DNA from: an uncultured Candidatus Binatia bacterium
Lineage (GTDB): Bacteria > Desulfobacterota > Binatia > Bin18
DNA length: 64,000 nt
Reading direction: 5' to 3'
NCBI GenBank assembly: GCA_965200965.1
Contig: OZ241744.1
Location: 2,752,001-2,816,000, forward strand
The stretch's first letter is position 1. Every line of letters starts with the position of its first letter. The notes under the pieces were generated by a model that saw nothing but the letters and a program-made list of their open reading frames with translations, had not been told where the DNA came from and did no database searches. Shown piece after piece: positions 1,015 through 15,055 of the stretch. The position numbers and the translations under genes are program-made.

Positions 1015-1368
1015 TCAGGATGACTGGCCGGTGCGCTCAATCAGAGCGCGCAGAGCGGTCATGGTTTCATCGTGTCGTCTTGTGTCCTCCTCGTGCTGTC
1101 GTTGCAGAGCGGTCATGGTTTCATCGTGTCGTCTTGTGTCCTCGTGGTGCTGCTTGTCCATGGCGGTCATGGTGGCTTCATGTTGCTTGTCCATGGCGGT
1201 CATGGTTTCGTGATGCTGCTTGTCACGGTGGTCGGCAGAGCGGCGCATGAGTTGGAGACCCCCGGCCAGGATGAGGGTCTGGCTGAGGCTGATGAGCAGG
1301 GCGGAGATGTCCACCCAAGTGGGCTGGCTGAGGCGGTCAATGGCTTCGATGATGCCCTGGTATTCCAT
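1015..1368 (-). CDS. Array protein A8 (last transcribed), 117 aa, TM helix + His/Met coiled coil
   Basis: ATG preceded by AAGGGAG; 3x11 + 2x7 aa modules; ends ALRALIERTGQSS. Confidence 0.8.
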   Translation of the reverse strand: MEYQGIIEAIDRLSQPTWVDISALLISLSQTLILAGGLQLMRRSADHRDKQHHETMTAMDKQHEATMTAMDKQHHEDTRRHDETMTALQRQHEEDTRRHDETMTALRALIERTGQSS

Positions 1369-1405
1369 AGGCTGGTGCTCCCTTGCAAGCGGCAAGCTGC
1401 CGGGC

Positions 1406-1741
1406 TTAGTGAGGGGACTGGCCGGTGCGCTCAATCAGGGCGCGCAAGGCGGTCATGGTTTCGTGGTGTCGCCTTGTGTCCTCCTCGTGCTGTCGTTCCA
1501 TCGCGGTCATGGTGGCTTCGTGCTGTCGTTCCATGGCGGTCATGGTGGCTTCATGTTGCTTGTCCATGGCGGTCATGGTTTCGTGATGCTGCTTGTCACG
1601 GTGGTCGGCAGAGCGGCGCATGAGTTGGAGACCCCAGGCCAGGATGAGGGTCTGGCTGAGGCTGATGAGCAGGGCGGAGATATCCACCCAAGTGGGCTGG
1701 CTGAGGCGGTCAATGGCTTCGATGATGCCCTGGTATTCCAC
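1406..1741 (-). CDS. Array protein A7, 111 aa
   Basis: GTG start; 3x11 + 1x7 modules; G>W variant in TM. Confidence 0.8.
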   Translation of the reverse strand: MEYQGIIEAIDRLSQPTWVDISALLISLSQTLILAWGLQLMRRSADHRDKQHHETMTAMDKQHEATMTAMERQHEATMTAMERQHEEDTRRHHETMTALRALIERTGQSPH

Positions 1742-1778
1742 AGGCTGGTGCTCCCTTGCAAGCGGCAAGTTGCCGGGC

Positions 1779-2147
1779 TTAGTGAGGGGACTGGCCGGTG
1801 CGCTCGATCAGGGCGCGCAAGGCGGTCATGGTTTGGTCATGGCGTCTTGTGGCCTCTTCGTGCTGCTTGTCCATCGCGGTCATGGCCTCTTCGTGCTGCT
1901 TGTCCATCGCGGTCATGGCCTCTTCGTGCTGCTTGTCCATCGCGGTCATGGTGGCTTCGTGCTGTCGTTCCATCACGGTCATGGTGGCTTCGTGCTGCTT
2001 GTCGCGGTGGTCGGCAGAGCGGCGCATGAGTTGGAGACCCCCGGCCAGGATGAGGGTCTGGCTGAGGCTGATGAGCAGGGCGGAGATGTCCACCCAAGTG
2101 GGCTGGCTGAGGCGGTCAATGGCTTCGATGATGCCCTGGTATTCCAT
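1779..2147 (-). CDS. Array protein A6, 122 aa
   Basis: ATG start; 4x11 + 1x7 modules. Confidence 0.8.
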   Translation of the reverse strand: MEYQGIIEAIDRLSQPTWVDISALLISLSQTLILAGGLQLMRRSADHRDKQHEATMTVMERQHEATMTAMDKQHEEAMTAMDKQHEEAMTAMDKQHEEATRRHDQTMTALRALIERTGQSPH

Positions 2148-2184
2148 AGGCTGGTGCTCCCTTGCAAGCGGCAAGCTGCCGGGC

Positions 2185-2562
2185 TTAGTGAGGGGACTGG
2201 CCGGTGCGCTCAATCAGGGCGCGCAAGGCGGTCATGGTTTCGTGGTGTCGCCTTGTGTCCTCCTCGTGCTGTCGTTCCATCGCGGTCATGGTTTGGTCAT
2301 GGCGTCTTGTATCCTCCTCGTGCTGTCGTTCCATCGCGGTCATGGTTTCATCGTGTCGTCTTGTGGCCTCGTGGTGCTGCTTGTCCATCGCGGTCATGGT
2401 TTCGTGATGCTGCTTGTCGCGGTGGTCGGCAGAGCGGCGCATGAGTTGGAGGCCCCCGGCCAGGATGAGGGTCTGGCTGAGGCTGATGAGCAGGGCGGAG
2501 ATATCCACCCAAGTGGGCTGGCTGAGGCGGTCAATGGCTTCGATGATGCCCTGGTATTCCAC
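2185..2562 (-). CDS. Array protein A5, 125 aa
   Basis: GTG start; 3x11 + 3x7 modules. Confidence 0.8.
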   Translation of the reverse strand: MEYQGIIEAIDRLSQPTWVDISALLISLSQTLILAGGLQLMRRSADHRDKQHHETMTAMDKQHHEATRRHDETMTAMERQHEEDTRRHDQTMTAMERQHEEDTRRHHETMTALRALIERTGQSPH

Positions 2563-2600
2563 AGGCTGGTGCTCCCTTGGCAAGCGGCAAGTTGCCGGGC

Positions 2601-2969
2601 TTAGTGAGGGGACTGGCCGGTGCGCTCGATCAGGGCGCGCAGGGCGGTCATGGTTTGGTCATGGCGTCTTGTGGCCTCTTCGTGCTGCTTGTCCATCGCG
2701 GTCATGGCCTCTTCGTGCTGCTTGTCCATCGCGGTCATGGTGGCTTCGTGCTGTCGTTCCATCACGGTCATGGTGGCTTCGTGCTGTCGTTCCATCACGG
2801 TCATGGTGGCTTCGTGCTGCTTGTCGCGGTGGTCGGCAGAGCGGCGCATGAGTTGGAGACCCCCGGCCAGGATGAGGGTCTGGCTGAGGCTGATGAGCAG
2901 GGCGGAGATGTCCACCCAAGTGGGCTGGCTGAGGCGGTCAATGGCTTCGATGATGCCCTGGTATTCCAT
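2601..2969 (-). CDS. Array protein A4, 122 aa
   Basis: ATG start; 4x11 + 1x7 modules. Confidence 0.8.
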   Translation of the reverse strand: MEYQGIIEAIDRLSQPTWVDISALLISLSQTLILAGGLQLMRRSADHRDKQHEATMTVMERQHEATMTVMERQHEATMTAMDKQHEEAMTAMDKQHEEATRRHDQTMTALRALIERTGQSPH

Positions 2970-3006
2970 AGGCTGGTGCTCCCTTGCAAGCGGCAAGCTG
3001 CCGGGC

Positions 3007-3330
3007 TTAGTGAGGGGACTGGCCGGTGCGCTCAATCAGGGCGCGCAAGGCGGTCATGGTTTCGTGGTGTCGCCTTGTGTCCTCCTCGTGCTGTCGTTCC
3101 ATCGCGGTCATGGTTTGGTCATGGCGTCTTGTGTCCTCCTCGTGCTGTCGTTCCATCACGGTCATGGTGGCTTCGTGCTGCTTGTCGCGGTGGTCGGCAG
3201 AGCGGCGCATGAGTTGGAGGCCCCAGGCCAGGATGAGGGTCTGGCTGAGGCTGATGAGCAGGGCGGAGATATCCACCCAAGTGGGCTGGCTGAGGCGGTC
3301 AATGGCTTCGATGATGCCCTGGTATTCCAT
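3007..3330 (-). CDS. Array protein A3, 107 aa
   Basis: ATG start; 2x11 + 2x7 modules; G>W variant. Confidence 0.8.
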   Translation of the reverse strand: MEYQGIIEAIDRLSQPTWVDISALLISLSQTLILAWGLQLMRRSADHRDKQHEATMTVMERQHEEDTRRHDQTMTAMERQHEEDTRRHHETMTALRALIERTGQSPH

Positions 3331-3368
3331 AGGCTGGTGCTCCCTTGGCAAGCGGCAAGTTGGCGGGC

Positions 3369-3779
3369 TTAGTGAGGGGACTGGCCGGTGCGCTCAATCA
3401 GAGCGCGCAGAGCGGTCATGGTTTCATCGTGTCGCCTTGTGTCCTCTTCGTGCTGTCGTTCCATCGCGGTCATGGTTTCGTGGTGTCGTCTTGTGTCCTC
3501 TTCGTGCTGTCGTTGCATCGCGGTCATGGTTTCATCGTGTCGTCTTGTGTCCTCGTGGTGTTGCTTGTCCATGGCGGTCATGGTGGCTTCATGTTGCTTG
3601 TCCATGGCGGTCATGGTTTCGTGATGCTGCTTGTCGCGGTGGTCGGCAGAGCGGCGCATGAGTTGGAGGCCCCCGGCCAGGATGAGGGTCTGGCTGAGGC
3701 TGATGAGCAGGGCGGAGATGTCCACCCAAGTGGGCTGGCTGAGGCGGTCAATGGCTTCGATGATGCCCTGGTATTCCAT
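3369..3779 (-). CDS. Array protein A2, 136 aa
   Basis: ATG start; 4x11 + 3x7 modules. Confidence 0.8.
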   Translation of the reverse strand: MEYQGIIEAIDRLSQPTWVDISALLISLSQTLILAGGLQLMRRSADHRDKQHHETMTAMDKQHEATMTAMDKQHHEDTRRHDETMTAMQRQHEEDTRRHHETMTAMERQHEEDTRRHDETMTALRALIERTGQSPH

Positions 3780-3817
3780 AGGCTGGTGCTCCCTTGGCAA
3801 GCGGCAAGCTGCCGGGC

Positions 3818-4153
3818 TTAGTGAGGGGACTGGCCGGTGCGCTCAATCAGGGCGCGCAAGGCGGTCATGGTTTCGTGGTGTCGCCTTGTATCCTCCTCGT
3901 GCTGTCGTTCCATGGCGGTCATGGTGGCTTCATGTTGCTTGTCCATGGCGGTCATGGTGGCTTCGTGCTGTTTGTCCATGGCGGTCATGGTTTCGTGATG
4001 CTGCTTGTCGCGGTGGTCGGCAGAGCGGCGCATGAGTTGGAGGCCCCCGGCCAGGATGAGGGTCTGGCTGAGGCTGATGAGCAGGGCGGAGATGTCCACC
4101 CAAGTGGGCTGGCTGAGGCGGTCAATGGCTTCGATGATGCCCTGGTATTCCAC
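3818..4153 (-). CDS. Array protein A1 (first transcribed), 111 aa
   Basis: GTG start; 3x11 + 1x7 modules; unique upstream sequence. Confidence 0.75.
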   Translation of the reverse strand: MEYQGIIEAIDRLSQPTWVDISALLISLSQTLILAGGLQLMRRSADHRDKQHHETMTAMDKQHEATMTAMDKQHEATMTAMERQHEEDTRRHHETMTALRALIERTGQSPH

Positions 4154-4182: not shown

Positions 4183-4479
4183 CTACTCAGTGACGATGGT
4201 TGTGACAGCCGGCAGTTCCTTCACTTCGTCGTCGGACCAGCGGGTGTAGGCCCCGGAGGTTGAGCCGTGGGCGTCTCTGGGCCGCTGGCCGGCGGCCTTC
4301 ATGTTTGTGGTGTACACGGTATCGGCGGCGTCAAGCTGGGTGCGGGCTTCTTTGAGCCCGGCCAGGGCGGCGCGGGTTGATGGGAGGGCGGTGCGGTCTA
4401 CGGCCATCGGCAGCACGGCGCAGCCGGCAGCAGCGAGGCTCAGACACAGGGCCAGGGTTGTGGATGTCGTTTGTCTCAT
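4183..4479 (-). CDS. Small lipoprotein downstream of secretin (position where CpaD/RcpB-type genes often lie)
   Basis: MRQTTSTTLALCLSLAAAGC lipobox. Confidence 0.65.
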   Translation of the reverse strand: MRQTTSTTLALCLSLAAAGCAVLPMAVDRTALPSTRAALAGLKEARTQLDAADTVYTTNMKAAGQRPRDAHGSTSGAYTRWSDDEVKELPAVTTIVTE

Positions 4480-4529
4480 GGCGGCACGCTCCACTGCAAT
4501 GCCCACCATATCACAAAGCACCCGCCGGG

Positions 4530-7174
4530 TTAATAATAATAGCCACGCAGGCGGCGGCCAGGGCTGGGCTGGTCGCGGTTGTTGTCCACAGGAGGAAACG
4601 TTTCATCTCGTCCTTGCGGGATGGTGGCGGCGTCGGTCAGCCGGGCGGTGACGACAATAATCAGTTCGGTGGCACTGGAGCGGACCGAGCGGGTGCCGAA
4701 CAGCAGGTTGACGATTGGGATGTCTTTGAGGAGTGGCACTCCGCTTTCGCGCGATTCGCTCTGGTCACGGTACAGGCCGGCGATGACGATGGACTCGCCG
4801 TTGCCGACCTCGACGGTGGTCTCGGCCCGGCGGCCGTCAATGACCGGGATATCTACTCCCGCGGCCCGCAGGGCTTCGGTCTCGGAGCGTTGCGAGACCT
4901 CGGAGCGGACGGTCAGCACAATCCGCCCGCTGTCTACCACGGTCGGCACAAAGTCGAGCAGGACGCCGAACTTCTTATAGGTGAAGATGATCGCCCCGTC
5001 CTCAAAGCCGGCCGGCAGCGGAAACTCGCCGCCGGAAAAGAAGCTGGCGGTTTCGCCCGATACCGCGGTCAGGCTGGGCCGGGCCAGGACGCTGACGAGG
5101 CCGGCGGTGGCCAGGGCGTCGAGCATGGCGGTGACCCGCGTACTGCCGTCGATAACCTGGTTCGTGAAAATCCCCGAGGCCGCGCCACCGGGCAGAGCCG
5201 TCCGCAAGAACTCGCTGGCCTCTTCATCAAGGAAGTCGCGTCCGATGAAGAGGTTTGTCTGGCCCCCACCGGCGTGGGTGTCAACGATCTCCCAGTTGAT
5301 GCCCAGGGCTTCGCTGACGCTGCGGTTCATCTCGGCGATCTGGACCTCGAGGTTGACCTGCTGTGCGCCGGAGACGATGAGGCGGTTGGTGACGGGAACC
5401 TCGCTCGGCAGGGCGGCCACGGCCAGCCGCACGGCCAAGTCGGCCTGGGCTGAGGAGGCGACTGTGCCGCTGAGTTCAACGCCTTGGCTGAGCTGCCGGA
5501 CGGAGATCCCTTTGAGGGCTTCTGCGCCCTCCAGGGCGGTCTGGACCGGGCCGACATCAATCACCGTGGCCACCGTCCAGGCGGCCAGCATCTCGCCGGC
5601 GGCGTCAAGTACGGCGACTGAGGTGCGGCCAATGGCTTTGCCGACGAGGTGCAGGACGCCGGAGGAAACGAGGCTGACATCGGCGATGTCGGGGTTGCCG
5701 ATGAAGACGGAGCCGGCCGGCGCGTCAAGGCGCAGCAGGCGGCTGTGGCCGAGGGGCAGGGTCAGGAGGGGGGCGGTGTGGGGCGGTGCGGGCTCTTCCT
5801 TCCCCTCCGGGGGGGAGGGAAGAAAAGGTGGCTGGGGCGGGCTGCCTGTGGGCGTGGGGCTGGCGGTTTGTGTTCCTCTGTCTGAGGGGGAGGAAGTGGG
5901 GGTGCGTGGCGTTGTACCGGGGGTCTGTGCTCCCTCTCCCCTTGGGGTTTGGGGTGAGGGGTCTTCGGGAGAAGGAACACCTGGGCGGTCCTGGCTGCCT
6001 GGGTCTACAGGAGGAGCGGTAGTGGTTTGCGCGGTTTGTGTGGGAGCGGGTGTCCCCGCTGCCTCTCCCTCTGAGGGGAGGGAAGGAGAGGCGGTTGCGG
6101 CTCGGCGGTGGTCTTTGCGCAGGTCAAGGACAATTTTGGTCATGCCGCCCTGGCGCAGGGGGAAGGTGCGCAGGTGGTAGTCGCCGGTGAGGGTGGCGGT
6201 GAAGGTGCGGCCGTCGGGGTCAAGGACGGCTTGGCTGATGTATGCGCCGAGGTGGTGGCGGATTGGCGCAAAGTCGGTGTGCATCTGCCGGCCAAACTCC
6301 ACGGTGAGGAGTCTGGCGTCCAGGCTGGCGGTGTAGCTGACGGTCTGGGGCCAGTCAAAGACGATGCGGCCGTAGTCGTTATGCGCCCAGGCACGGGTGA
6401 TGACTTGCTCGGCGGCAGCCCCCTCCGCCCGGCCCTCCGCCTCTGGGGGGGCGGTCTGGTCCGGGTCTTGCTCCCTCTCCCCTTGGGGGCTGGGGTGAGG
6501 GGTTGGGGTGGGCTGTGTGGGAGCGGGTGTTCCCGCTGCCTCCTCCTCTGAGGGGAGGGAACGAGAGGCGGCTGTGGCTCGGCGGTGGTCTTTGCGCAGG
6601 TCGAGGACAATTTTGGTCATGCCGCCTTGGCGCAGGGGGAAGGTGCGCAGGTGGTAGTCGCCGGTGAGGGTGGCGGTGAAGGTGCGGCCGTCGGGGTCAA
6701 GGACGGCTTGGCTGATGTATGCGCCGAGGTGGTGGCGGATTGGCGCAAAGTCGGTGTGCATCTGCCGGTCAAACTCCACGGTGAGGAGTCTGGCGTCCAG
6801 GCTGGCGGTGTAGCTGACGGTCTGGGGCCAGTCAAAGACGATGCGGCCGTAGTCGTCGTGCACCCAGGCACGGGTGATGACTTGCTCGGCGGCTGTCCCC
6901 TCTGTCTGGCCCTCCGCCTCTGGGGGGGCAGGAACGGGAAGGTGTGGCCCGCTGTCTGGGGGGGGGGTGGTCCGGGTCTTGCTCCCTCTCCCCTGTGGGG
7001 GTTGGTGTGGGCTGTGTCGGAGCGGGTGTCCCCCCTGCCTTCCCCCTCCAGGGGGGAGGGGATATGTGGCTGCCCGGTCGGCTCGGGGTCTGCCGGCTGG
7101 GCGTTGGCAGTCTTGTTGCCCCCTCCCATCCACAGCAAGAGGGCAACAAGGATTCCACATAGGAGTTTGGGCAC
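4530..7174 (-). CDS. cpaC: Tad secretin CpaC/RcpA with duplicated N-terminal periplasmic domain; 5' end frameshifted
   Basis: VFIGNPDIADV, QQVNLEVQIAE, LARPSLTAVSGETASFFSGGEFP, LLKDIPIVNLLF, TELIIVVT; signal peptide (GTG 7174, MPKLLCGILVALLLWMGGGNKTANA/QP) is in a different frame from the secretin body. Confidence 0.88.
6040..6920 (-). repeat. Internal ~477-bp-period duplication in cpaC (VITRAW...LDLRKDHRRATAAS x2)
   Basis: Two near-identical ~105-aa domains separated by Pro/Thr-rich linkers; boundaries approximate. Confidence 0.9.
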
Positions 7175-7250: not shown

Positions 7251-7511
7251 TCAGGATGAGTTGCCGGTTGAGTTGCCGGTTGAGTTGCCGGTTGAGTTGC
7301 CACCTTGGTCTCTCGCGGCTGTCACCCCTGCGGCCATATCAGCCCGGAGGCGTGTGAGTGAGTCTACGATTTCCTGCCTAAAGGCTGCCACCGCGGCCCC
7401 GAGACCAAGGGCGACCGCGCCGACCAGCATGGCGTATTCCAGGGCGGAGACAGCCTTGGTGTTGCGGAGATAACGACGGGCGGTTCTGGCGTAGTGTCTG
7501 ATGCGGGTCAT
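7251..7511 (-). CDS. flp: Flp family type IVb/c pilin with C-terminal GNST repeats
   Basis: Basic leader, KA/VSALEYAMLVGAVALGL Flp motif, GGAG RBS upstream. Confidence 0.88.
   Translation of the reverse strand: MTRIRHYARTARRYLRNTKAVSALEYAMLVGAVALGLGAAVAAFRQEIVDSLTRLRADMAAGVTAARDQGGNSTGNSTGNSTGNSS
7258..7301 (-). repeat. 12-bp tandem repeat (GGCAACTCAACC) x~3.7 encoding GNST
   Basis: Directly visible. Confidence 0.9.
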
Positions 7512-7585
7512 GCTTCTTCTCCTTTCCTTACAGAGCGGTGAATACATCATGTAGGGCCTTACATTGCAATTGGGGGCTGTCCCGT

Positions 7586-8077
7586 CTAGTTCAGGCTGGA
7601 TTGTGCAGCAGGGTCGGTGCGTTCAATGAGGACGCGGAGGGCCTCGCCTTGCTGGCGGAGGGCCTCGCCTTGCTGGCGGAGGGCCTCGCCTTGCTGGTGG
7701 AAGGCTTCACCTTGCTGATGGACTGCATCGCGGAAGGCTTCGCCCTGCTGGCGGAGGGCCTCGCCTTGCTGGCGGAGGGCTTCCATTGTCTCGGCGTGCC
7801 GGCGGGCATCGGCCTCCCCTTGGCGGGCAGATTCCTCCCCTTGGTGGGCGAAGGCGGCCATGACTTCCTCGTGCCGCTTTTGGTGCTCTTTCCCTCGTTT
7901 GTCGCTATCCCGGAGCATGTTCCGAATGCCTGACCAGATAATGGCGCATTGGGTGAGGCCGATCACGCCGGTGACGATGATCGAGACGACTTCTGTCCAC
8001 TTTGGCTCGTTGGCCGCCTGTTGGGCGGCCAACATGGCCTGCTGGAAGGCGAGTGTGGCGGTTTCAAACTCGGTCAT
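7586..8077 (-). CDS. TM + coiled-coil repeat protein B2 (163 aa), homologous to array proteins
   Basis: W-TM-Q..I..G..M.R....R.K.H pattern, RQQGEAL heptads, ends ALRVLIERT. Confidence 0.8.
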   Translation of the reverse strand: MTEFETATLAFQQAMLAAQQAANEPKWTEVVSIIVTGVIGLTQCAIIWSGIRNMLRDSDKRGKEHQKRHEEVMAAFAHQGEESARQGEADARRHAETMEALRQQGEALRQQGEAFRDAVHQQGEAFHQQGEALRQQGEALRQQGEALRVLIERTDPAAQSSLN

Positions 8078-8130
8078 GGCCTCTCTTCTAAACGACGGGC
8101 GGTTTTGGCGCAGCGTCTGATGTGGGTCAT
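8074..8130 (-). pseudogene. Truncated second flp pilin (leader only)
   Basis: MTHIRRCAKTARR matches flp leader MTRIRHYARTARR, with similar upstream region and RBS; body replaced by the B cassette. Confidence 0.7.
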
Positions 8131-8184
8131 GCTTCTCCTCTCAAAGAACTGTGATCATAATCATATGGGGCCTTACATTACAAA

Positions 8185-8676
8185 CTAGTTCAGGCTGGAT
8201 TGTGCAGCAGGGTCGGTGCGTTCAATGAGGACGCGGAGGGCCTCGCCTTGCTGGCGGAGGGCTTCGCCTTGCTGGCGGAAGGCTTCACCCTGTTGGCGGA
8301 AGGCTTCACCTTGCTGATGGACTGCATCGCGGAAGGCTTCGCCCTGCTGGCGGAGGGCCTCGCCTTGCTGGCGGAGGGCTTCGCCTTGCTGGCGGAGGGC
8401 TTCCATTGTCTCGGCGTGCCGGCGGGCATCGGCCTCCCCCTGGCGGGCGAAGGCGGCCATGACTTCCTCGTGCCGCTTTTGGTGCTCTTTCCCTCGTTTG
8501 TCGCTATCCCGGAGCATGTTCCGAATGCCTGACCAGATAATGGCGCATTGGGTGAGGCCGATCACGCCGGTGACGATGATCGAGACGACTTCTGTCCACT
8601 TTGGCTCGTTGGCCGCCTGCTGGGCGGCTAACATGGCCTGCTGGAAGGCGAGTGTGGCGGTTTCAAACTCGGTCAT
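8185..8676 (-). CDS. TM + coiled-coil repeat protein B1 (163 aa)
   Basis: Near-identical to 7586-8077 with rearranged heptads. Confidence 0.8.
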   Translation of the reverse strand: MTEFETATLAFQQAMLAAQQAANEPKWTEVVSIIVTGVIGLTQCAIIWSGIRNMLRDSDKRGKEHQKRHEEVMAAFARQGEADARRHAETMEALRQQGEALRQQGEALRQQGEAFRDAVHQQGEAFRQQGEAFRQQGEALRQQGEALRVLIERTDPAAQSSLN

Positions 8677-8686
8677 GGCCTCTCTT

Positions 8687-10195
8687 CTAGTAGATGCGGC
8701 GGAAGCGTTTCAACTGCTGGGCGATGGAGCGAAAGGCGTCCTTCAGGGTCTCGGGCGTGGCGTTGTTGACAAAGACATAGGTTCCGTCCGGGTCATCGGC
8801 CGCACTGGAACACTGGGTCAGGGAGTTTTTCAGGCTCGCCGAAACGGTGGGCATGGCGGCAATGGCAAATATCTTGATGCCGGCGTTCTTGGCCGCGGTA
8901 CACGCCCTGTTCCGATGGCCGGCATGACGGGTATCCGCGCCATCGGTGAGCAGGACCAGGGCTTTTTGCACGGCCTCGTTGGCCGGGTCGGCCGGGTGGG
9001 TCCCGCCGCCCCATACGGACCGCCAGGAGGGGGCGAGCAGGCGGTGTGCCCAGGTCACGCCAACCGCGGAATAGGTGTCGCTGCCGGCCGCCTGCAAGCC
9101 GTTGATCGCTGTCCGTATCGCGCCGGTATCGGTGGTCAGCGGTATGATCGGGGGCGGGGGGAGCCCGCAGGTATATTGGATATCGTCATTGCTCAGCTTT
9201 GCAACGCCCGTACCCGGTGTACCGTGATAACACCAGTCCTGCCCCTTTGGGGGAGCGACACACTCGAAAGAGCCGTAAAAGTGTTGCAGGTTCGGCGGCA
9301 CATTGTAGAACTCCATTGTAAACGGTGTGTCCGCCGGCGGGGCGGAAGAAAAGGCCGGCGGGTTGCTGCCGGAGGTGGAACGCTGCTCAACACAGCCCTT
9401 CCAGGCCTGGGGCTTGGTGGCCGGGAGCGTCTGCCACTCGCCGGGGGCGTAAGTTTTCCTCCAGTTGGTGCCCACGGTCCAGTAGGGCTTGGGATACCAG
9501 CGTTGGGTTGGGTAGACCGCCCAGCCGTTGTTTTCCCAGTGTGTTCGCTCGGTGGGGCCTAAGCGGACCTGTTCATCCCAGGGAACGAGTCCGATTGCCG
9601 CGGAGCCGTCACCGCTGGCGTTCAGGATGTTGACGAGTTCCAGGGCGGCCCCTTTGACGACCGTCAGGAGCGAATCGGTACTCCCAGACAGGCGGCTCAT
9701 TGAGCTGGTGACATCAATAGCCAGGGCAACCTCGGTCAGGCGTTCGAGCTGCTCAAAGCCGCTGCGGGTCTCTGAGGTGGCGGCGATATTGCCCCAGAGC
9801 CAGCGGCCAAAGACGGCACCGCCAAGGTCGGCCTTGGCGTGGACGCCGACCGTGCCGGCGGTGCAGTTGGGGGTGAGGGTGACTTCCAGGGTTTCGTCGG
9901 CTCGGTCGCGTTTGCCCGCGGGCAGGTTGGACAGGATGTAGCGTCTGGCTATGGGGCTGAGGGCGGCGTTGAGTTGGGCGTCGGTCATGGTGGTGCAACT
10001 GAGGCTTTCCATCTCGTTCATCAGAGCGACACCGGCCGAGTCGGAGGCAACCTGGAGCAGGTCACGCTGCCAGGTAAGCTGGTGGTGGTCGCCGACGAGG
10101 GCGATGCCGGCCAGGCTCAGCATGGTGAACATGCCGGCGGTGAGGGTGGTGGCGACGGCGGCGGTGCTGTGCAGAAATGCTGTGAGGTGTGTCAT
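8687..10195 (-). CDS. TadG-like pilus adhesin with von Willebrand A domain
   Basis: N-terminal hydrophobic helix + LQVASDSA; MIDAS DVTSSMS, LLTDG; tad context. Confidence 0.82.
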   Translation of the reverse strand: MTHLTAFLHSTAAVATTLTAGMFTMLSLAGIALVGDHHQLTWQRDLLQVASDSAGVALMNEMESLSCTTMTDAQLNAALSPIARRYILSNLPAGKRDRADETLEVTLTPNCTAGTVGVHAKADLGGAVFGRWLWGNIAATSETRSGFEQLERLTEVALAIDVTSSMSRLSGSTDSLLTVVKGAALELVNILNASGDGSAAIGLVPWDEQVRLGPTERTHWENNGWAVYPTQRWYPKPYWTVGTNWRKTYAPGEWQTLPATKPQAWKGCVEQRSTSGSNPPAFSSAPPADTPFTMEFYNVPPNLQHFYGSFECVAPPKGQDWCYHGTPGTGVAKLSNDDIQYTCGLPPPPIIPLTTDTGAIRTAINGLQAAGSDTYSAVGVTWAHRLLAPSWRSVWGGGTHPADPANEAVQKALVLLTDGADTRHAGHRNRACTAAKNAGIKIFAIAAMPTVSASLKNSLTQCSSAADDPDGTYVFVNNATPETLKDAFRSIAQQLKRFRRIY

Positions 10196-11373: not shown

Positions 11374-13062
11374 CTACTGGCCGGGCAGGGCAATTCTTAC
11401 CATTGTGCCCTGCCCGGGCAGGGATCTGAGAGAGATGCTGCCCTCGTATTTCTGCACAACATGTTGGGCTGTCGTGAGGCCCATGCCTTTTGCATCAGGC
11501 CTGGAGGTGTAGAACGGCTCAAACACCTTTTTTCGATGCTCGGCCTCAATGCCGTCTCCATTGTCGGCGATGATGATGAGCACCGTGTCATCCTCACGTT
11601 TGGTCTCGATGCGGATGAGGCTGTTCTTCTTGCTCCGGTGCTCAAGGGCGTACAGCGAGTTGTCAAGAACGCTGGTGACAATCAGCCCGATGTCGGCCTT
11701 GGCAGCCAGGACCTTGGGCAGCGGGTTCAACTCCTTGACGACGACCGCGGCCGTTTCGGCCTTGGTGCTTTCTACGGCCTCATCGATGCAGTCGTTGATG
11801 TTCAGCCGCTCCCGGGCGTTGTCCCCGGTCTGGAACAGCGACGGCAGGCGGTCGGCGACCTCGACAATATCGCCGGCCTGGGCACGGATGCTTGAGAGCA
11901 GCGCGGCCGCGGTTTTGAGCTCTTCGTCGGCCACCGGCGGCGAGCCGGCTTCGTTCGAGCGCAGCTTGGCCTGCACATCGTCAAGAATGTCCAGGTTGCC
12001 GGTGATGTGCTCTCCGCAGGAGGCCAACTGCCGGGCGACGACCTCCAGCCCGGCCCGCTGCGCCACGCCCTCCGCGGCGCGGTCGGGGCCGACGGTCTGT
12101 TGGTCGGCCTCCAGGGTCGCGATCAGATTGTCCAGCCCGTTGGACTGTCTGCGCCTGGACCGCTGGGCCAGCCCGGCCACCGGGCTGGAACCGGGGATAT
12201 CCGCCGGCGCTTCCTGGGGCGCGTTCTTGGGCAGGCGCAGGGCAATGGCCAGCCACATCAGCCACAGCGCCCCGCCCGAGGCCAGGATGCCGTTTTCGTA
12301 GTAGTCAACCAGAACCTCTTTGCGGTCGGCCTCGGCTTTTAGGTTGGCGCTCAGGCTCTCGCCATAGTCGCTGATGGTGCTGGATGTGGCCTCCTGAAAG
12401 AACGCCTCGGTCGGTTCGTATTTGTCGAGCAGCACGAGGCCGTGGCCAACAAGATTCTGGGCCGGGCTGGTCAGCACCGGGTAACGGGCGGTGATGCGAT
12501 TGCCCACCTGGACAAGTACGCGCGTCAGGCGTTCTTTTTCCGGTGGGGTCGGGGTGGTGATATAGGCGGTGATATCGTTGGTGACGGTCGAAACGCTGCG
12601 GACGAACGACGCGTTGCCGTTTCTCTGTCGTATCTGGTTGATGAGGGTGCTGGAGGCCTGCGGCAGGTAGCGGATGGAATTGCGCAGAACGGCATAGCCG
12701 GTCTTGAAGCGCTCTACTCTCTCTTCCTTGGCATCAATGGCGGTCAGGTAGGCGTTGAGATCATAGCGCATCCGTTCTGGCAGGTCAGGGATGGTCCGCA
12801 TGGTGTCCGACAGCTCGGCCTTGAGGCGTTCTATCCGGGGGATGAAGGAAATGAGGCCGTCAAAGTCAGACAGCGGGTCCGCTCGGACCCGGGCGGCCTC
12901 AACGCTCCACTGGGATTCAATCTGGTTGATCCGCTGAATAAGGGAAATGGCGAGCCGATGGTTGGCCGGCTGATTGGTGCGGGCCATCCAGTACAACCCC
13001 GCCGCGATGGTCACGAGAAACAGCGAGAAAAAGACGCCGATGGTGAGTGATCTGGATCGCAT
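11374..13062 (-). CDS. Membrane sensor histidine kinase-like protein (all-helical, DAHL-like periplasmic sensor; HATPase domain; degenerate H-box)
   Basis: Two TMs; ERFKTGYAVLRNSIRYLP; N box LDNSLYA, DNGDGI, FEPFYT, GMGL. Confidence 0.8.
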   Translation of the reverse strand: MRSRSLTIGVFFSLFLVTIAAGLYWMARTNQPANHRLAISLIQRINQIESQWSVEAARVRADPLSDFDGLISFIPRIERLKAELSDTMRTIPDLPERMRYDLNAYLTAIDAKEERVERFKTGYAVLRNSIRYLPQASSTLINQIRQRNGNASFVRSVSTVTNDITAYITTPTPPEKERLTRVLVQVGNRITARYPVLTSPAQNLVGHGLVLLDKYEPTEAFFQEATSSTISDYGESLSANLKAEADRKEVLVDYYENGILASGGALWLMWLAIALRLPKNAPQEAPADIPGSSPVAGLAQRSRRRQSNGLDNLIATLEADQQTVGPDRAAEGVAQRAGLEVVARQLASCGEHITGNLDILDDVQAKLRSNEAGSPPVADEELKTAAALLSSIRAQAGDIVEVADRLPSLFQTGDNARERLNINDCIDEAVESTKAETAAVVVKELNPLPKVLAAKADIGLIVTSVLDNSLYALEHRSKKNSLIRIETKREDDTVLIIIADNGDGIEAEHRKKVFEPFYTSRPDAKGMGLTTAQHVVQKYEGSISLRSLPGQGTMVRIALPGQ

Positions 13063-13101
13063 AGGCTGACTCCTGCGTCGGACACTTCGTCTTTGCGGGG
13101 A

Positions 13102-14196
13102 CTAGTTGCCGCTCTGGGCGAAAGCCCGTTCCGGGCTGACCAGGCCGCCCCTGCCACGGCTGCCCTGGACCTGTTTCACCGCGGCCGGCTCCTCAACCTC
13201 TTGCTGGAAATCGGGGTCTACCGGCTCTCCGGCCAGGGTTTTGATGAAGGCCACAATGGCATCCTTATCCTCATCCGGGGCTTCGCGTCCCAACTGAAAC
13301 TCGAACATCGCGTCAACCGCATCGCGCAAGGTCTCGGCGCTGCCGTCGTGCAGATAGGGGGCGGTGTGGGCTGCCATGCGTAGGCTGGGGACCTTGAAGG
13401 CGTGACGGTCGGCAATGTTGCCGGTGACATTGAAGCGGCCAAGGTCGGCTTCGGTGATATTGCCCCGCTTTTTGAAATACTCGTTGATGACGCCGAAGAC
13501 CTGGAACATATTCCCGCCCACGGCCGCCCCCTGGTGGCACGACACACAGCCGTAGCGTTTGAACAGCATATAGCCGTGTTCCTCCTCCTCGGTAATGGCC
13601 GAGGAGTCGCCTGTGAGCCAGCGGTCAAAGCGGCTGTTGTGTGTGGTCAGGGAGCGGACAAATTCGGCGATAGCGTCTTTGACGGTGGTGCGGGTGATAC
13701 TGTCCTCGCCATACACCTCCGAGAACAGGCGGGGATAGTCCTCGTCCTGAAAAAGTTTGGTGAGCACATCGGGCCAGATGCTTCCCATCTCAATGTTGCT
13801 CTGTATCGGTCCGTCAGCCTGGTCTTCCAGCGTCTCCGCCCGTCCGTCCCAGAACTGTTTGAAATTGAAATTGGCGTTGAGCACAGTGGGCGCGTTCACC
13901 GCGCCGAGCTTGCCCTGAATCCCGACCGAAACCTGCCTGCCGTCGTCGCCACCGGCCCTGAGATGGTGGCAACTGGCGCACGAAACAGAGTTGTCGTTTG
14001 ACAAGCGCACATCGTGGAACAGCCGCTTGCCCAGGCCGGCTTTGGCCACATCAACCTCAATGGCCGGCATTGGCTTGATCGGCTCTGCTGCCGCGGCCTG
14101 TCCAGAGCCGAGGCAGACCACACCGGCTATTCCCAAGCCCGCCAGCCGGCGGCGGAGCCGAGCCGGTTTCCTTGCGCTCTTTTGAGCTGTGTTCAT
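13102..14196 (-). CDS. Di-haem cytochrome c peroxidase / MauG family
   Basis: Two CxxCH (CASCH, CVSCH), LGKRLFHDVRLS, QFWDGRA, FKVPSLR, TAPYLHDGS. Confidence 0.92.
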   Translation of the reverse strand: MNTAQKSARKPARLRRRLAGLGIAGVVCLGSGQAAAAEPIKPMPAIEVDVAKAGLGKRLFHDVRLSNDNSVSCASCHHLRAGGDDGRQVSVGIQGKLGAVNAPTVLNANFNFKQFWDGRAETLEDQADGPIQSNIEMGSIWPDVLTKLFQDEDYPRLFSEVYGEDSITRTTVKDAIAEFVRSLTTHNSRFDRWLTGDSSAITEEEEHGYMLFKRYGCVSCHQGAAVGGNMFQVFGVINEYFKKRGNITEADLGRFNVTGNIADRHAFKVPSLRMAAHTAPYLHDGSAETLRDAVDAMFEFQLGREAPDEDKDAIVAFIKTLAGEPVDPDFQQEVEEPAAVKQVQGSRGRGGLVSPERAFAQSGN

Positions 14197-14909
14197 GGTT
14201 CCTTTATTCCCCTGTTCCCCGGGGTCCTGTTTGCGATGAATTCGGCCAACTCGGCCCTATCACCCGCCATCCAATAGGAGGCCTTGTGACTGGCATACAG
14301 CCGTTTGGCTTCTTCCAGGCCGCCCGACTCAACCAGCATCCGCACCAGATTGGCCGTGATCATGGGATGCGAAGCCAAGGCCAGGGCCGTGTCATAACGC
14401 TCCTTCGCCTGCGCCCAGTCACCCTCAAGGCTTGCCACAACGGCCAGACCGTTAGACACCCAGGACGCCACCCTGCCTGAAGACGCCGCGGCCTCTCCAT
14501 CAGCGATCGCCGCGGCGGCCAGGAAGCAGGTCTTGGCCTGAGCGAGGTCTTCCCGCCCCAGGGCTGCCCGCCCGGCCCCGAGCAGGGCTTCGGCCTTGAG
14601 GGCGTCGGTTGTGGCCAGTTCGCCGGCCTCGGCGAACAGGGCGTCCGCGGTGCTGAAGTTGCCCGCATGCAGGGCCAGATAGCCCAGCCCGAGTTTCGGC
14701 TCCGGCGCGGTGGGGAAGGTACGGGAGAGGTTTTCGTACAGCCGCCCCGCGGCGGCCGGCTGGCCAGTTTCAATAGCCGCGGCAGACACCTTCAGGCTGC
14801 TGTTCAACATCTCCTGTTGGGCCGGACCGAGTTGCGCCTCGCCCGAGAGCTGGCTACACGCACCCAGCACTACCGTGAGGCCCGCTGTCATGAACTGACC
14901 AGGCTTCAT
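14193..14909 (-). CDS. TPR lipoprotein, TadD/CpaO-like pilotin
   Basis: VVLGAC lipobox; TPR helices; heads the tad-oriented operon. Confidence 0.7.
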   Translation of the reverse strand: MKPGQFMTAGLTVVLGACSQLSGEAQLGPAQQEMLNSSLKVSAAAIETGQPAAAGRLYENLSRTFPTAPEPKLGLGYLALHAGNFSTADALFAEAGELATTDALKAEALLGAGRAALGREDLAQAKTCFLAAAAIADGEAAASSGRVASWVSNGLAVVASLEGDWAQAKERYDTALALASHPMITANLVRMLVESGGLEEAKRLYASHKASYWMAGDRAELAEFIANRTPGNRGIKEP

Positions 14910-14937
14910 TCTGACCCTCCCATATGTTGCAATCCTG

Positions 14938-15055
14938 CATACCATCAGTCTGTATGTCAAGCCCTCTTCGGATTTATGGCTTGACATACAGACTGAAAGT
15001 ATGGCATAGGAGCGTCATACAATAATTCCGGGGAGTCAAACAGACAGACTGTATG
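14938..15055. promoter_or_regulatory. Divergent promoter region: perfect 19-bp inverted repeat and three CATAC-N9-GTATG TetR-type operator-like boxes
   Basis: IR arms 14945-14963 and 14978-14996, each containing TTGACA; boxes at 14938-14956, 14985-15003, 15037-15055 (last with one mismatch). Confidence 0.75.

What the first reader, a model, noticed from the sequence alone, without database searches (positions are those of the whole stretch)
7560..8690. Second subfamily of the same protein flanks flp and has overwritten a pilin gene
Seen: B1/B2 align to the array proteins (PKWTEV~PTWVDI; LTQCAIIWSGIRNMLR~LSQTLILAGGLQLMRR; RH.ETM.AL; ALRVLIERT~ALRALIERT) but use a different module (RQQGEAL). 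Both are 163 aa through compensating heptad gain and loss. The two cassettes are nearly identical, while their downstream promoter/flp-leader regions are clearly diverged. B2 begins right inside a flp leader (MTHIRRCAKTARR|). Cassette edges are CTAG...CTAG (8185, 8687) and CTAG...CTAA (7586, 8088). Inference: recent copying of a discrete cassette, placing B2 under a pilin promoter. The family colonised this locus twice, giving 10 copies.
Basis: partly seen in the sequence, partly recalled or inferred. Interest (0 to 1): 0.7.

Follow-up and report, generated by a model that had tools for sequence, protein, structure and literature searches.

The report
Duplicated stalk gene beside pilin
Two near-identical small genes sit in front of a pilus-subunit gene, likely because a 600-base stretch was copied head-to-tail, not because a mobile cassette overwrote a second pilin gene; they belong to an unnamed family of predicted membrane-anchored helix proteins that turns up repeatedly inside this kind of pilus gene cluster.

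Summary
The sequence facts hold; the mechanism does not. B1 (8185-8676) and B2 (7586-8077) are 163-aa relatives of the 8-copy A array, and a 13-codon flp start lies between them. The CTAG edges are stop codons (tadG's and B's own) and are not shared by other copies (26 in this genome, 79 in relatives). The layout is one tandem duplication of [B + flp upstream spacer + flp start]. A related strain (run X11) has one B, one spacer and one flp. The nearest relatives have one flp. Relative G007 amplified its A gene the same way, dragging along ends of both neighbours. Equal length is chance (117-175 aa in other strains). The wider finding is more interesting: the family has no Pfam, NCBIfam or PHROG match, is under purifying selection, occurs in 32 of 55 family genomes (two genera only), and sits in 9 of 20 tad loci against 0 of 20 control stretches, at about nine different gene-and-site combinations. 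Its function is untested.

The parts
8687..10195 (-). TadG-like vWA protein; its TAG stop (8689-8687) is the 5' 'edge' of the repeat
   Evidence: Pfam VWA E=3e-5; homologues sit before flp in relatives; the name TadG is my label from domain and position
8091..8689 (-). Tandem unit 1 (599 nt): tadG stop + RBS + B1 + spacer 1 + flp start stub
7472..8090 (-). Tandem unit 2 (619 nt): copied TAG + RBS + B2 + spacer 2 + first 13 codons of the intact flp
8185..8676 (-). B1, 163 aa, predicted N-out single-pass membrane protein with a long cytoplasmic helix and ALRVLIERT tip
7586..8077 (-). B2, 163 aa, second copy
8131..8184 (-). Spacer 1, a copy of the flp upstream region; sigma-70-like site at 8183-8154 (9 of 12 matches)
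8074..8130 (-). flp start stub, 18-codon ORF; join point at 8091/8090; its TGA overlaps the ATG of B2
7512..7585 (-). Spacer 2, flp upstream region with RBS
   Evidence: aligns to the tadG-flp spacer of G004
7251..7511 (-). Intact flp pilin, 86 aa; the only flp in the genome
   Evidence: Pfam Flp_Fap E=1e-4, below the curated cut-off; tblastn of the genome
4530..7160 (-). RcpA/CpaC secretin with a repeated N-terminal domain
   Evidence: Pfam Secretin E=7e-39, T2SS-T3SS_pil_N
1015..4153 (-). A array: 8 tandem copies of another subfamily, between a small lipoprotein-like gene (4183-4521) and the CpaE-like gene (3-986); those two labels are mine, from position

Best explanation
B1 and B2 are likely the product of one local head-to-tail duplication of a 600-base unit running from the tadG stop codon to codon 13 of flp, which would put the second copy behind flp's promoter and ribosome-binding site, and both encode a predicted membrane-anchored helical stalk protein. 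Shown: the two units are homologous end to end; a related strain carries the one-unit state; relative G007 has the same kind of neighbour-capturing amplification. Inferred: the join formed by illegitimate recombination; B copies then stayed alike through exchange between copies while the flp-side spacer turned over with pilin alleles; B2 is transcribed with flp and may be translationally coupled to the stub. The protein is predicted to be N-out/C-in, one membrane helix (about residues 30-48) and a cytoplasmic coiled-coil stalk whose length varies by whole repeats between a fixed anchor and a fixed tip. My committed functional guess (about 0.25) is a dosage- and length-tunable accessory at the inner-membrane side of the Tad pilus machine; otherwise it is a co-expressed passenger with a general membrane role.
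For: One-unit strain: in run X11 a 922-nt contig joins flp (7380-7501) directly to one spacer and a B 3' end, skipping 623 nt, and a 22,528-nt contig runs from tadG into B unbroken at similar depth (57 vs 50); its spacer maps to spacer 1 but carries a 16-nt piece like the one only spacer 2 has. The 5' edge is host sequence: G004, which has no B there, also reads TAG-AACAGAGCC-ATG after tadG. The clade (G046,(G004,(G007,G000))) has one flp per locus (quick tree). G007's five-copy A array repeats [end of upstream gene + A + first ~48 codons of downstream gene], with four identical mid-gene joins and a 2-nt overlap; G007 also has a duplicated, decayed B with a flp stub at another join. Divergence pattern: in six other runs the flp side differs from the window by 7-30 letters per 226-283 nt, tadG by 1-3 per 541-641 nt, and spacer 1/stub carry flp-side letters at 8111, 8114, 8165, 8167 in several runs. 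Protein: AlphaFold helices 3-21 and 28-154, pLDDT 79; 92% of 79 members have a 19-residue hydrophobic window, K+R 0.35 before and 3.5 after it; dN/dS 0.04-0.47 in 7 of 7 tad-resident pairs. Promoter capture by tandem duplication is documented (PMC6614815, PMC11111574; passages read).
Against: No repeat lies at the present join; a 4-nt ATCT shared by the tadG end and flp would need a further 6-nt loss (sequence). B copies are far more alike than their spacers, which one event alone does not give; exchange between copies is inferred, and the contig data collapse copies, so they cannot show it. X11's one-unit state could be a later collapse. 13 of 20 tad loci in the wider family do have two or more flp genes. 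Transcription is not shown; the promoter is a 9/12 consensus match (0.3 expected by chance) and spacer 2 has none. B is decayed in G007 and missing in G004, and 11 of 20 tad loci have no family gene by the profile, so it is not a core pilus part.
Confidence: 0.8

Rival explanations
1. A copy of B replaced the body of a second, older flp paralogue, by gene conversion or unequal recombination between two pilin genes.
For: 13 of 20 tad loci carry 2-4 flp genes; spacer and flp-start copies are more diverged than B copies; the C-terminal half of the surviving Flp looks, by eye, like the second pilin of some relatives.
Against: The three nearest tad loci have one flp; X11 has one B and one flp; spacers 1 and 2 are homologous right up to B's stop, and B2 starts with tadG's stop codon; it needs two or more events.
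Confidence: 0.1
2. B is a self-contained mobile cassette with defined CTAG ends, inserted twice by a recombinase or transposase.
For: Family genes do move as single genes: filled against empty sites between the same two neighbours in G061/G062 vs G024/G059; one G046 copy is flanked by a 12-nt repeat of the next gene's start.
Against: CTAG words are stop codons; 7 of 79 relatives end in CTAG, the background rate; one strain's B reads through a changed stop (P0123); no enriched inverted repeats (14 of 79 vs 11% in controls); 8 of the 9 direct repeats of 12 nt or more belong to tandem neighbours.
Confidence: 0.04
3. The family is a general passenger of accessory DNA; its excess in tad loci reflects a patchy, mobile, insertion-tolerant locus, and the B duplication is neutral.
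For: Neighbours elsewhere are mixed: metabolic genes, recA, recG, uvrB, restriction-modification, ankyrins, transposases; tad itself is in only 18 of 55 genomes; some tad-resident copies lie on the opposite strand; copies decay (G004, G007).
Against: 9 of 20 tad loci vs 0 of 20 control stretches (p=0.001; 5 of 16 after merging kin, p=0.012); purifying selection on tad-resident copies; separate amplification of A in G000 and G007. The controls were arbitrary positions, not matched accessory loci.
Confidence: 0.55
4. The duplication is an assembly artefact.
For: The genome is a metagenome assembly with 5.7% contamination; only 1 listed contig (X3, 8054-8177) has 31 or more letters on both sides of the join.
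Against: Contigs across the join occur in 7 of 8 runs laid, from 3 studies, one of which may be the source (most have 29 letters on the short side); X1 depth is about 65 on B vs 33-36 on flanks and join; the copies differ by heptads.
Confidence: 0.02

Closest known systems
Promoter capture by tandem duplication (ble-GFP in E. coli, PMC6614815; PMC11111574, which also cites citT in the long-term evolution experiment and Salmonella his)
   Same: A gene and the promoter downstream of it are copied head-to-tail, so copy 2 sits behind the captured promoter; the join leaves a gene fragment; long homology is not needed.
   Different: Natural case in an uncultured symbiont; transcription from the captured site is not shown; B1 is probably already in the tad operon, so activation of a silent gene is not implied.
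Tad (type IVc) pilus locus with flp, RcpA secretin and TadG-like vWA protein
   Same: Host locus; tandem flp paralogues are common in the family (13 of 20 loci).
   Different: B and A match no Tad component in Pfam or NCBIfam and are absent from many of these loci.
N-out/C-in bitopic coiled-coil proteins (ATP synthase b, BhlA holins; comparison partly recalled)
   Same: One N-terminal membrane helix and a long cytoplasmic helix; ESM Atlas lists a BhlA-containing cluster at 0.81, a lead only.
   Different: No profile match; stalk length varies by repeat gain and loss (66-272 aa); up to about 25 paralogues per genome; no phage context found.
Integron cassettes, MITEs and IS elements (defining features recalled)
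   Same: Single genes appear at unrelated intergenic sites in either orientation.
   Different: No shared ends, inverted repeats or general target duplication.

Membership tests
Tandem duplication with promoter capture | Head-to-tail units homologous end to end with a new join | tested here: met
Tandem duplication with promoter capture | One-unit state exists in a relative | tested here: met
   run X11; G046 has one family gene and one flp
Tandem duplication with promoter capture | Microhomology at the join (common, not required) | tested here: inconclusive
   none at the present join; a 4-nt match lies 6 nt away
Tandem duplication with promoter capture | Copy 2 is transcribed from the captured promoter | not testable with these tools
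   consensus site only; no RNA run listed
Mobile cassette / MITE / IS | Conserved ends shared by copies | tested here: not met
Mobile cassette / MITE / IS | Terminal inverted repeats or attC-like palindromes | tested here: not met
   14 of 79 with 8 nt or more vs 11% in shuffled pairs; exact matches only, imperfect hairpins not tested
Mobile cassette / MITE / IS | Target-site duplication | tested here: inconclusive
   one single-copy case of 12 nt (G046); none visible at G061/G062 sites
Core Tad pilus component | Present in all tad loci and matching a Tad profile | tested here: not met
   9 of 20 loci; no profile match
Replaced flp paralogue | Intact second flp at the orthologous position in nearest relatives | tested here: not met
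   G007, G004, G046 and run X11 have one flp
BhlA-type holin | Profile match and phage lysis context | tested here: not met
Anti-phage defence gene | Enrichment beside defence genes | tested here: not met
   15 of 104 neighbours vs 13 of 120 controls hit PADLOC, p=0.43
Oligomeric coiled-coil stalk | Self-association of the long helix | not tested

The most novel reading that the evidence does not exclude
The family is an undescribed class of mobile, membrane-anchored stalk proteins of sponge-associated bacteria that is repeatedly recruited into Tad pilus loci and tuned there by copy number, promoter capture and stalk length, acting as a swappable regulator or shield of the pilus machine.
Probability: 0.22. 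Interest if true: 0.72.

Novelty: new member of a known kind. Interest (0 to 1): 0.38.

Why it matters
The local event is a clean natural example of a known process, with one-unit and two-unit strains available for comparison. The protein family matters more: at least 642 clusters, no name in the best 120 listed, confined to two of ten genera in the host family, under purifying selection, and found in tad loci at about nine different gene-and-site combinations. If that reflects function, it would be a new accessory layer on Tad pili in sponge symbionts and a tractable test of why these bacteria multiply small repeat-helix proteins. If it is only hitch-hiking, it is still a marker of how single genes spread without recognisable ends.

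Tried and rejected
CTAG ends as a signature: rejected. Equal length as selection: rejected. Defence association, suggested by two own-genome copies inside restriction-modification operons: not enriched against controls. Phage or plasmid vehicle: no plasmid match; viral scans gave none for P0022 and two weak repeat-only matches for B. JGI metagenome scan gave 1 weak repeat-only locus. Known families: no convincing hit in Pfam, NCBIfam or PHROGs for 58 members (best shared hit 7 of 58, coiled-coil noise); Foldseek PDB none at E<=0.001; ESM Atlas best 0.84. No RNA holder listed, which says nothing about expression. Depth ratios hint at more than two copies in some runs (X3, X8, X10) but depth is not copy number, so I do not claim it. 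The careful tad tree did not finish; the quick tree was used. The family tree uses 70 residues and has weak deep support. Six literature searches returned no paper on this family by their listings; subscription papers and bioRxiv supplements were not seen.

Full report
Observation. On the minus strand the order is TadG-like gene (8687-10195), B1 (8185-8676), spacer 1, a 13-codon flp start, B2 (7586-8077), spacer 2, intact flp (7251-7511), secretin (4530-7160), a small lipoprotein-like gene and the 8-copy A array. The names TadG, CpaD, CpaE, CpaF, TadB and TadC are my labels from domain or position; only vWA, Flp and secretin come from Pfam. B and A are related (E=2e-15). The copies share 97.9% identity from a TAG 14 nt before the start to the B stop; spacers share 77% and flp starts 90%.

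Host. The window lies in a 3.62-Mb single contig. 14 of the 20 named loci with B relatives are titled Ca. Binatia or Binatota, 2 Alphaproteobacteria. Runs that hold the stretch and name a habitat are mostly sponge metagenomes. I infer a sponge-associated Binatia.

The edges are stop codons. The CTAG at 8687 is the last base of a Tyr codon plus tadG's TAG; those at 8185 and 7586 are the last base of an Asn codon plus B's TAG. 303 of 2,456 long ORFs end in CTAG. A profile finds 26 family genes at 14 sites in the genome; 3 end in CTAG and no other end motif is visible. Among 79 genes from 67 of 78 loci in relatives, 7 end in CTAG and 2 have it within 30 nt upstream; inverted repeats are near control level; 9 have direct repeats of 12 nt or more, 8 of them from tandem neighbours. 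G004, with no B at this site, has the same 5' edge after tadG, so the edge is host sequence.

One duplication gives the layout. Copying 8689-8091 head-to-tail yields tadG, B, spacer, flp start, join, B, spacer, whole flp, as seen. Run X11 (a separate study; share of words 0.18, laid at 80% likeness) shows the one-unit state: a contig joins flp to a single spacer and a B 3' end, skipping 623 nt, and another runs from tadG into B with no repeat break at similar depth. In the quick tad tree the window groups with G007, G004 and G046, each with one flp, although 13 of 20 loci in the wider set have two or more. G007 shows the same process twice: its five A copies each carry the end of the upstream gene and about 48 codons of the downstream gene, with four identical joins, and its decayed B is duplicated with a flp stub at a different join. 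The duplication is real: contigs cross the join in 7 of 8 runs laid, though only one listed contig meets the 31-letter rule, and X1 has about twice the depth on B.

Why B copies are more alike than their spacers. In six other runs the flp side differs from the window by 7-30 letters per 226-283 nt, tadG by 1-3 per 541-641 nt; spacer 1 and the stub carry flp-side letters at four positions in several runs. B itself differs between strains by about 8-10 letters per 320 nt, yet the window's copies differ by 2 silent changes in codons 1-76. Database proteins that share a longest-contig length, which I take as pairs from one assembly, have lengths 163/163, 160/132, 163/152 and 149/163, and in three of these four pairs residues 59-60 differ between copies. 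I infer pilin-allele turnover on the flp side and exchange between B copies. The contigs collapse copies, so the exchange is not shown.

Consequence for expression. Spacer 1 holds a sigma-70-like site (8183-8154, 9 of 12; 0.3 expected) and the flp RBS; the stub ORF stops on B2's start (one chance in three). B2 likely shares flp's signals. This is promoter capture by tandem duplication, described in PMC6614815 and PMC11111574 (passages read). It is untested here.

The protein. AlphaFold gives a short helix (3-21) and one long helix (28-154), pLDDT 79, pTM 0.37. 92% of 79 members have a membrane-type window with basic residues after it, so N-out/C-in; 63 of 79 keep a LIERT-like tip; lengths run 66-272 aa. 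No library names it. A profile finds 642 clusters among 7,996 candidates scored. It matches 32 of 55 genomes of the host family: the window's own, 7 of 7 in its genus, 24 of 28 in a second genus, 0 of 19 in eight others, many of them incomplete. dN/dS is 0.04-0.47 in 7 of 7 tad-resident pairs, so these are selected proteins, though copies also decay (G004 A remnant; G007 B).

The wider pattern. Family genes lie in 9 of 20 tad loci and 0 of 20 control 18-kb stretches from seven copy-rich genomes (p=0.001; p=0.012 with kin merged). By my count they form about nine gene-and-site combinations in five intergenic positions and both orientations, from different branches of the family tree; filled and empty sites show clean single-gene insertions. 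Elsewhere neighbours are mixed and not enriched for defence genes (15 of 104 vs 13 of 120). The controls were not matched accessory loci, and tad is itself patchy (18 of 55 genomes), so hitch-hiking remains the likelier reading (0.55) against a pilus-specific role (about 0.25). How the genes move is unexplained.

Verdict. Observation confirmed; cassette and overwritten-pilin claims not supported; placement behind flp signals likely right by an ordinary route. The event is a new instance of a known kind. The unnamed family and its repeated entry into tad loci deserve follow-up.

Noticed in passing
L011:4100-6900 (G007): Five-copy A array whose unit includes the 3' end of the upstream gene and about 48 codons of the CpaE-like gene; a different unit from the window's A array, so A was amplified separately in the two species.
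   Followed up: yes
L094, L099, L101, L118, L126, L130, L134: 8 of 79 family genes have TTGAC exactly 35-36 nt before the start codon, suggesting their own promoter and leaderless transcripts; B lacks this.
   Followed up: partly
L112 / L065:7181-7561 (G046): A single family gene is flanked by a 12-nt direct repeat covering the RBS and start of the next gene, like a target duplication at a start codon.
   Followed up: partly
window 7251-7400: The flp 3' half is replaced by unrelated sequence in other strains (100-134 nt swapped for 144-195 nt) and ends in low-complexity repeats here and in G046 and G044: pilin C-termini vary fast.
   Followed up: partly
window 4530-7160: The secretin has a duplicated ~160-aa N-terminal domain and proline-rich linkers encoded by hairpin-like repeats.
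   Followed up: no
G000:C1:1015602-1015823 and 2379840-2380250: Family genes sit inside type I and type III restriction-modification operons (labels from sequence appearance); the first looks frameshifted at its 5' end.
   Followed up: partly
G000:C1:2176404-2178428; L031; L037: Further tandem arrays of the family: four copies in this genome and arrays in two Alphaproteobacteria assemblies.
   Followed up: partly
L046 (G043), just after tadG: A different coiled-coil gene, on the opposite strand, occupies the tadG-flp gap (seen).
   Followed up: no
L065 (G046): The tad locus of G046 groups with those of another genus in the quick tree, and G064 has two tad loci, one on a 110-kb contig: the locus seems to move.
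   Followed up: no
window 11374-14987: A DAHL histidine kinase, a di-haem cytochrome c peroxidase and a TPR protein lie upstream of the tad genes and are kept there in relatives.
   Followed up: no
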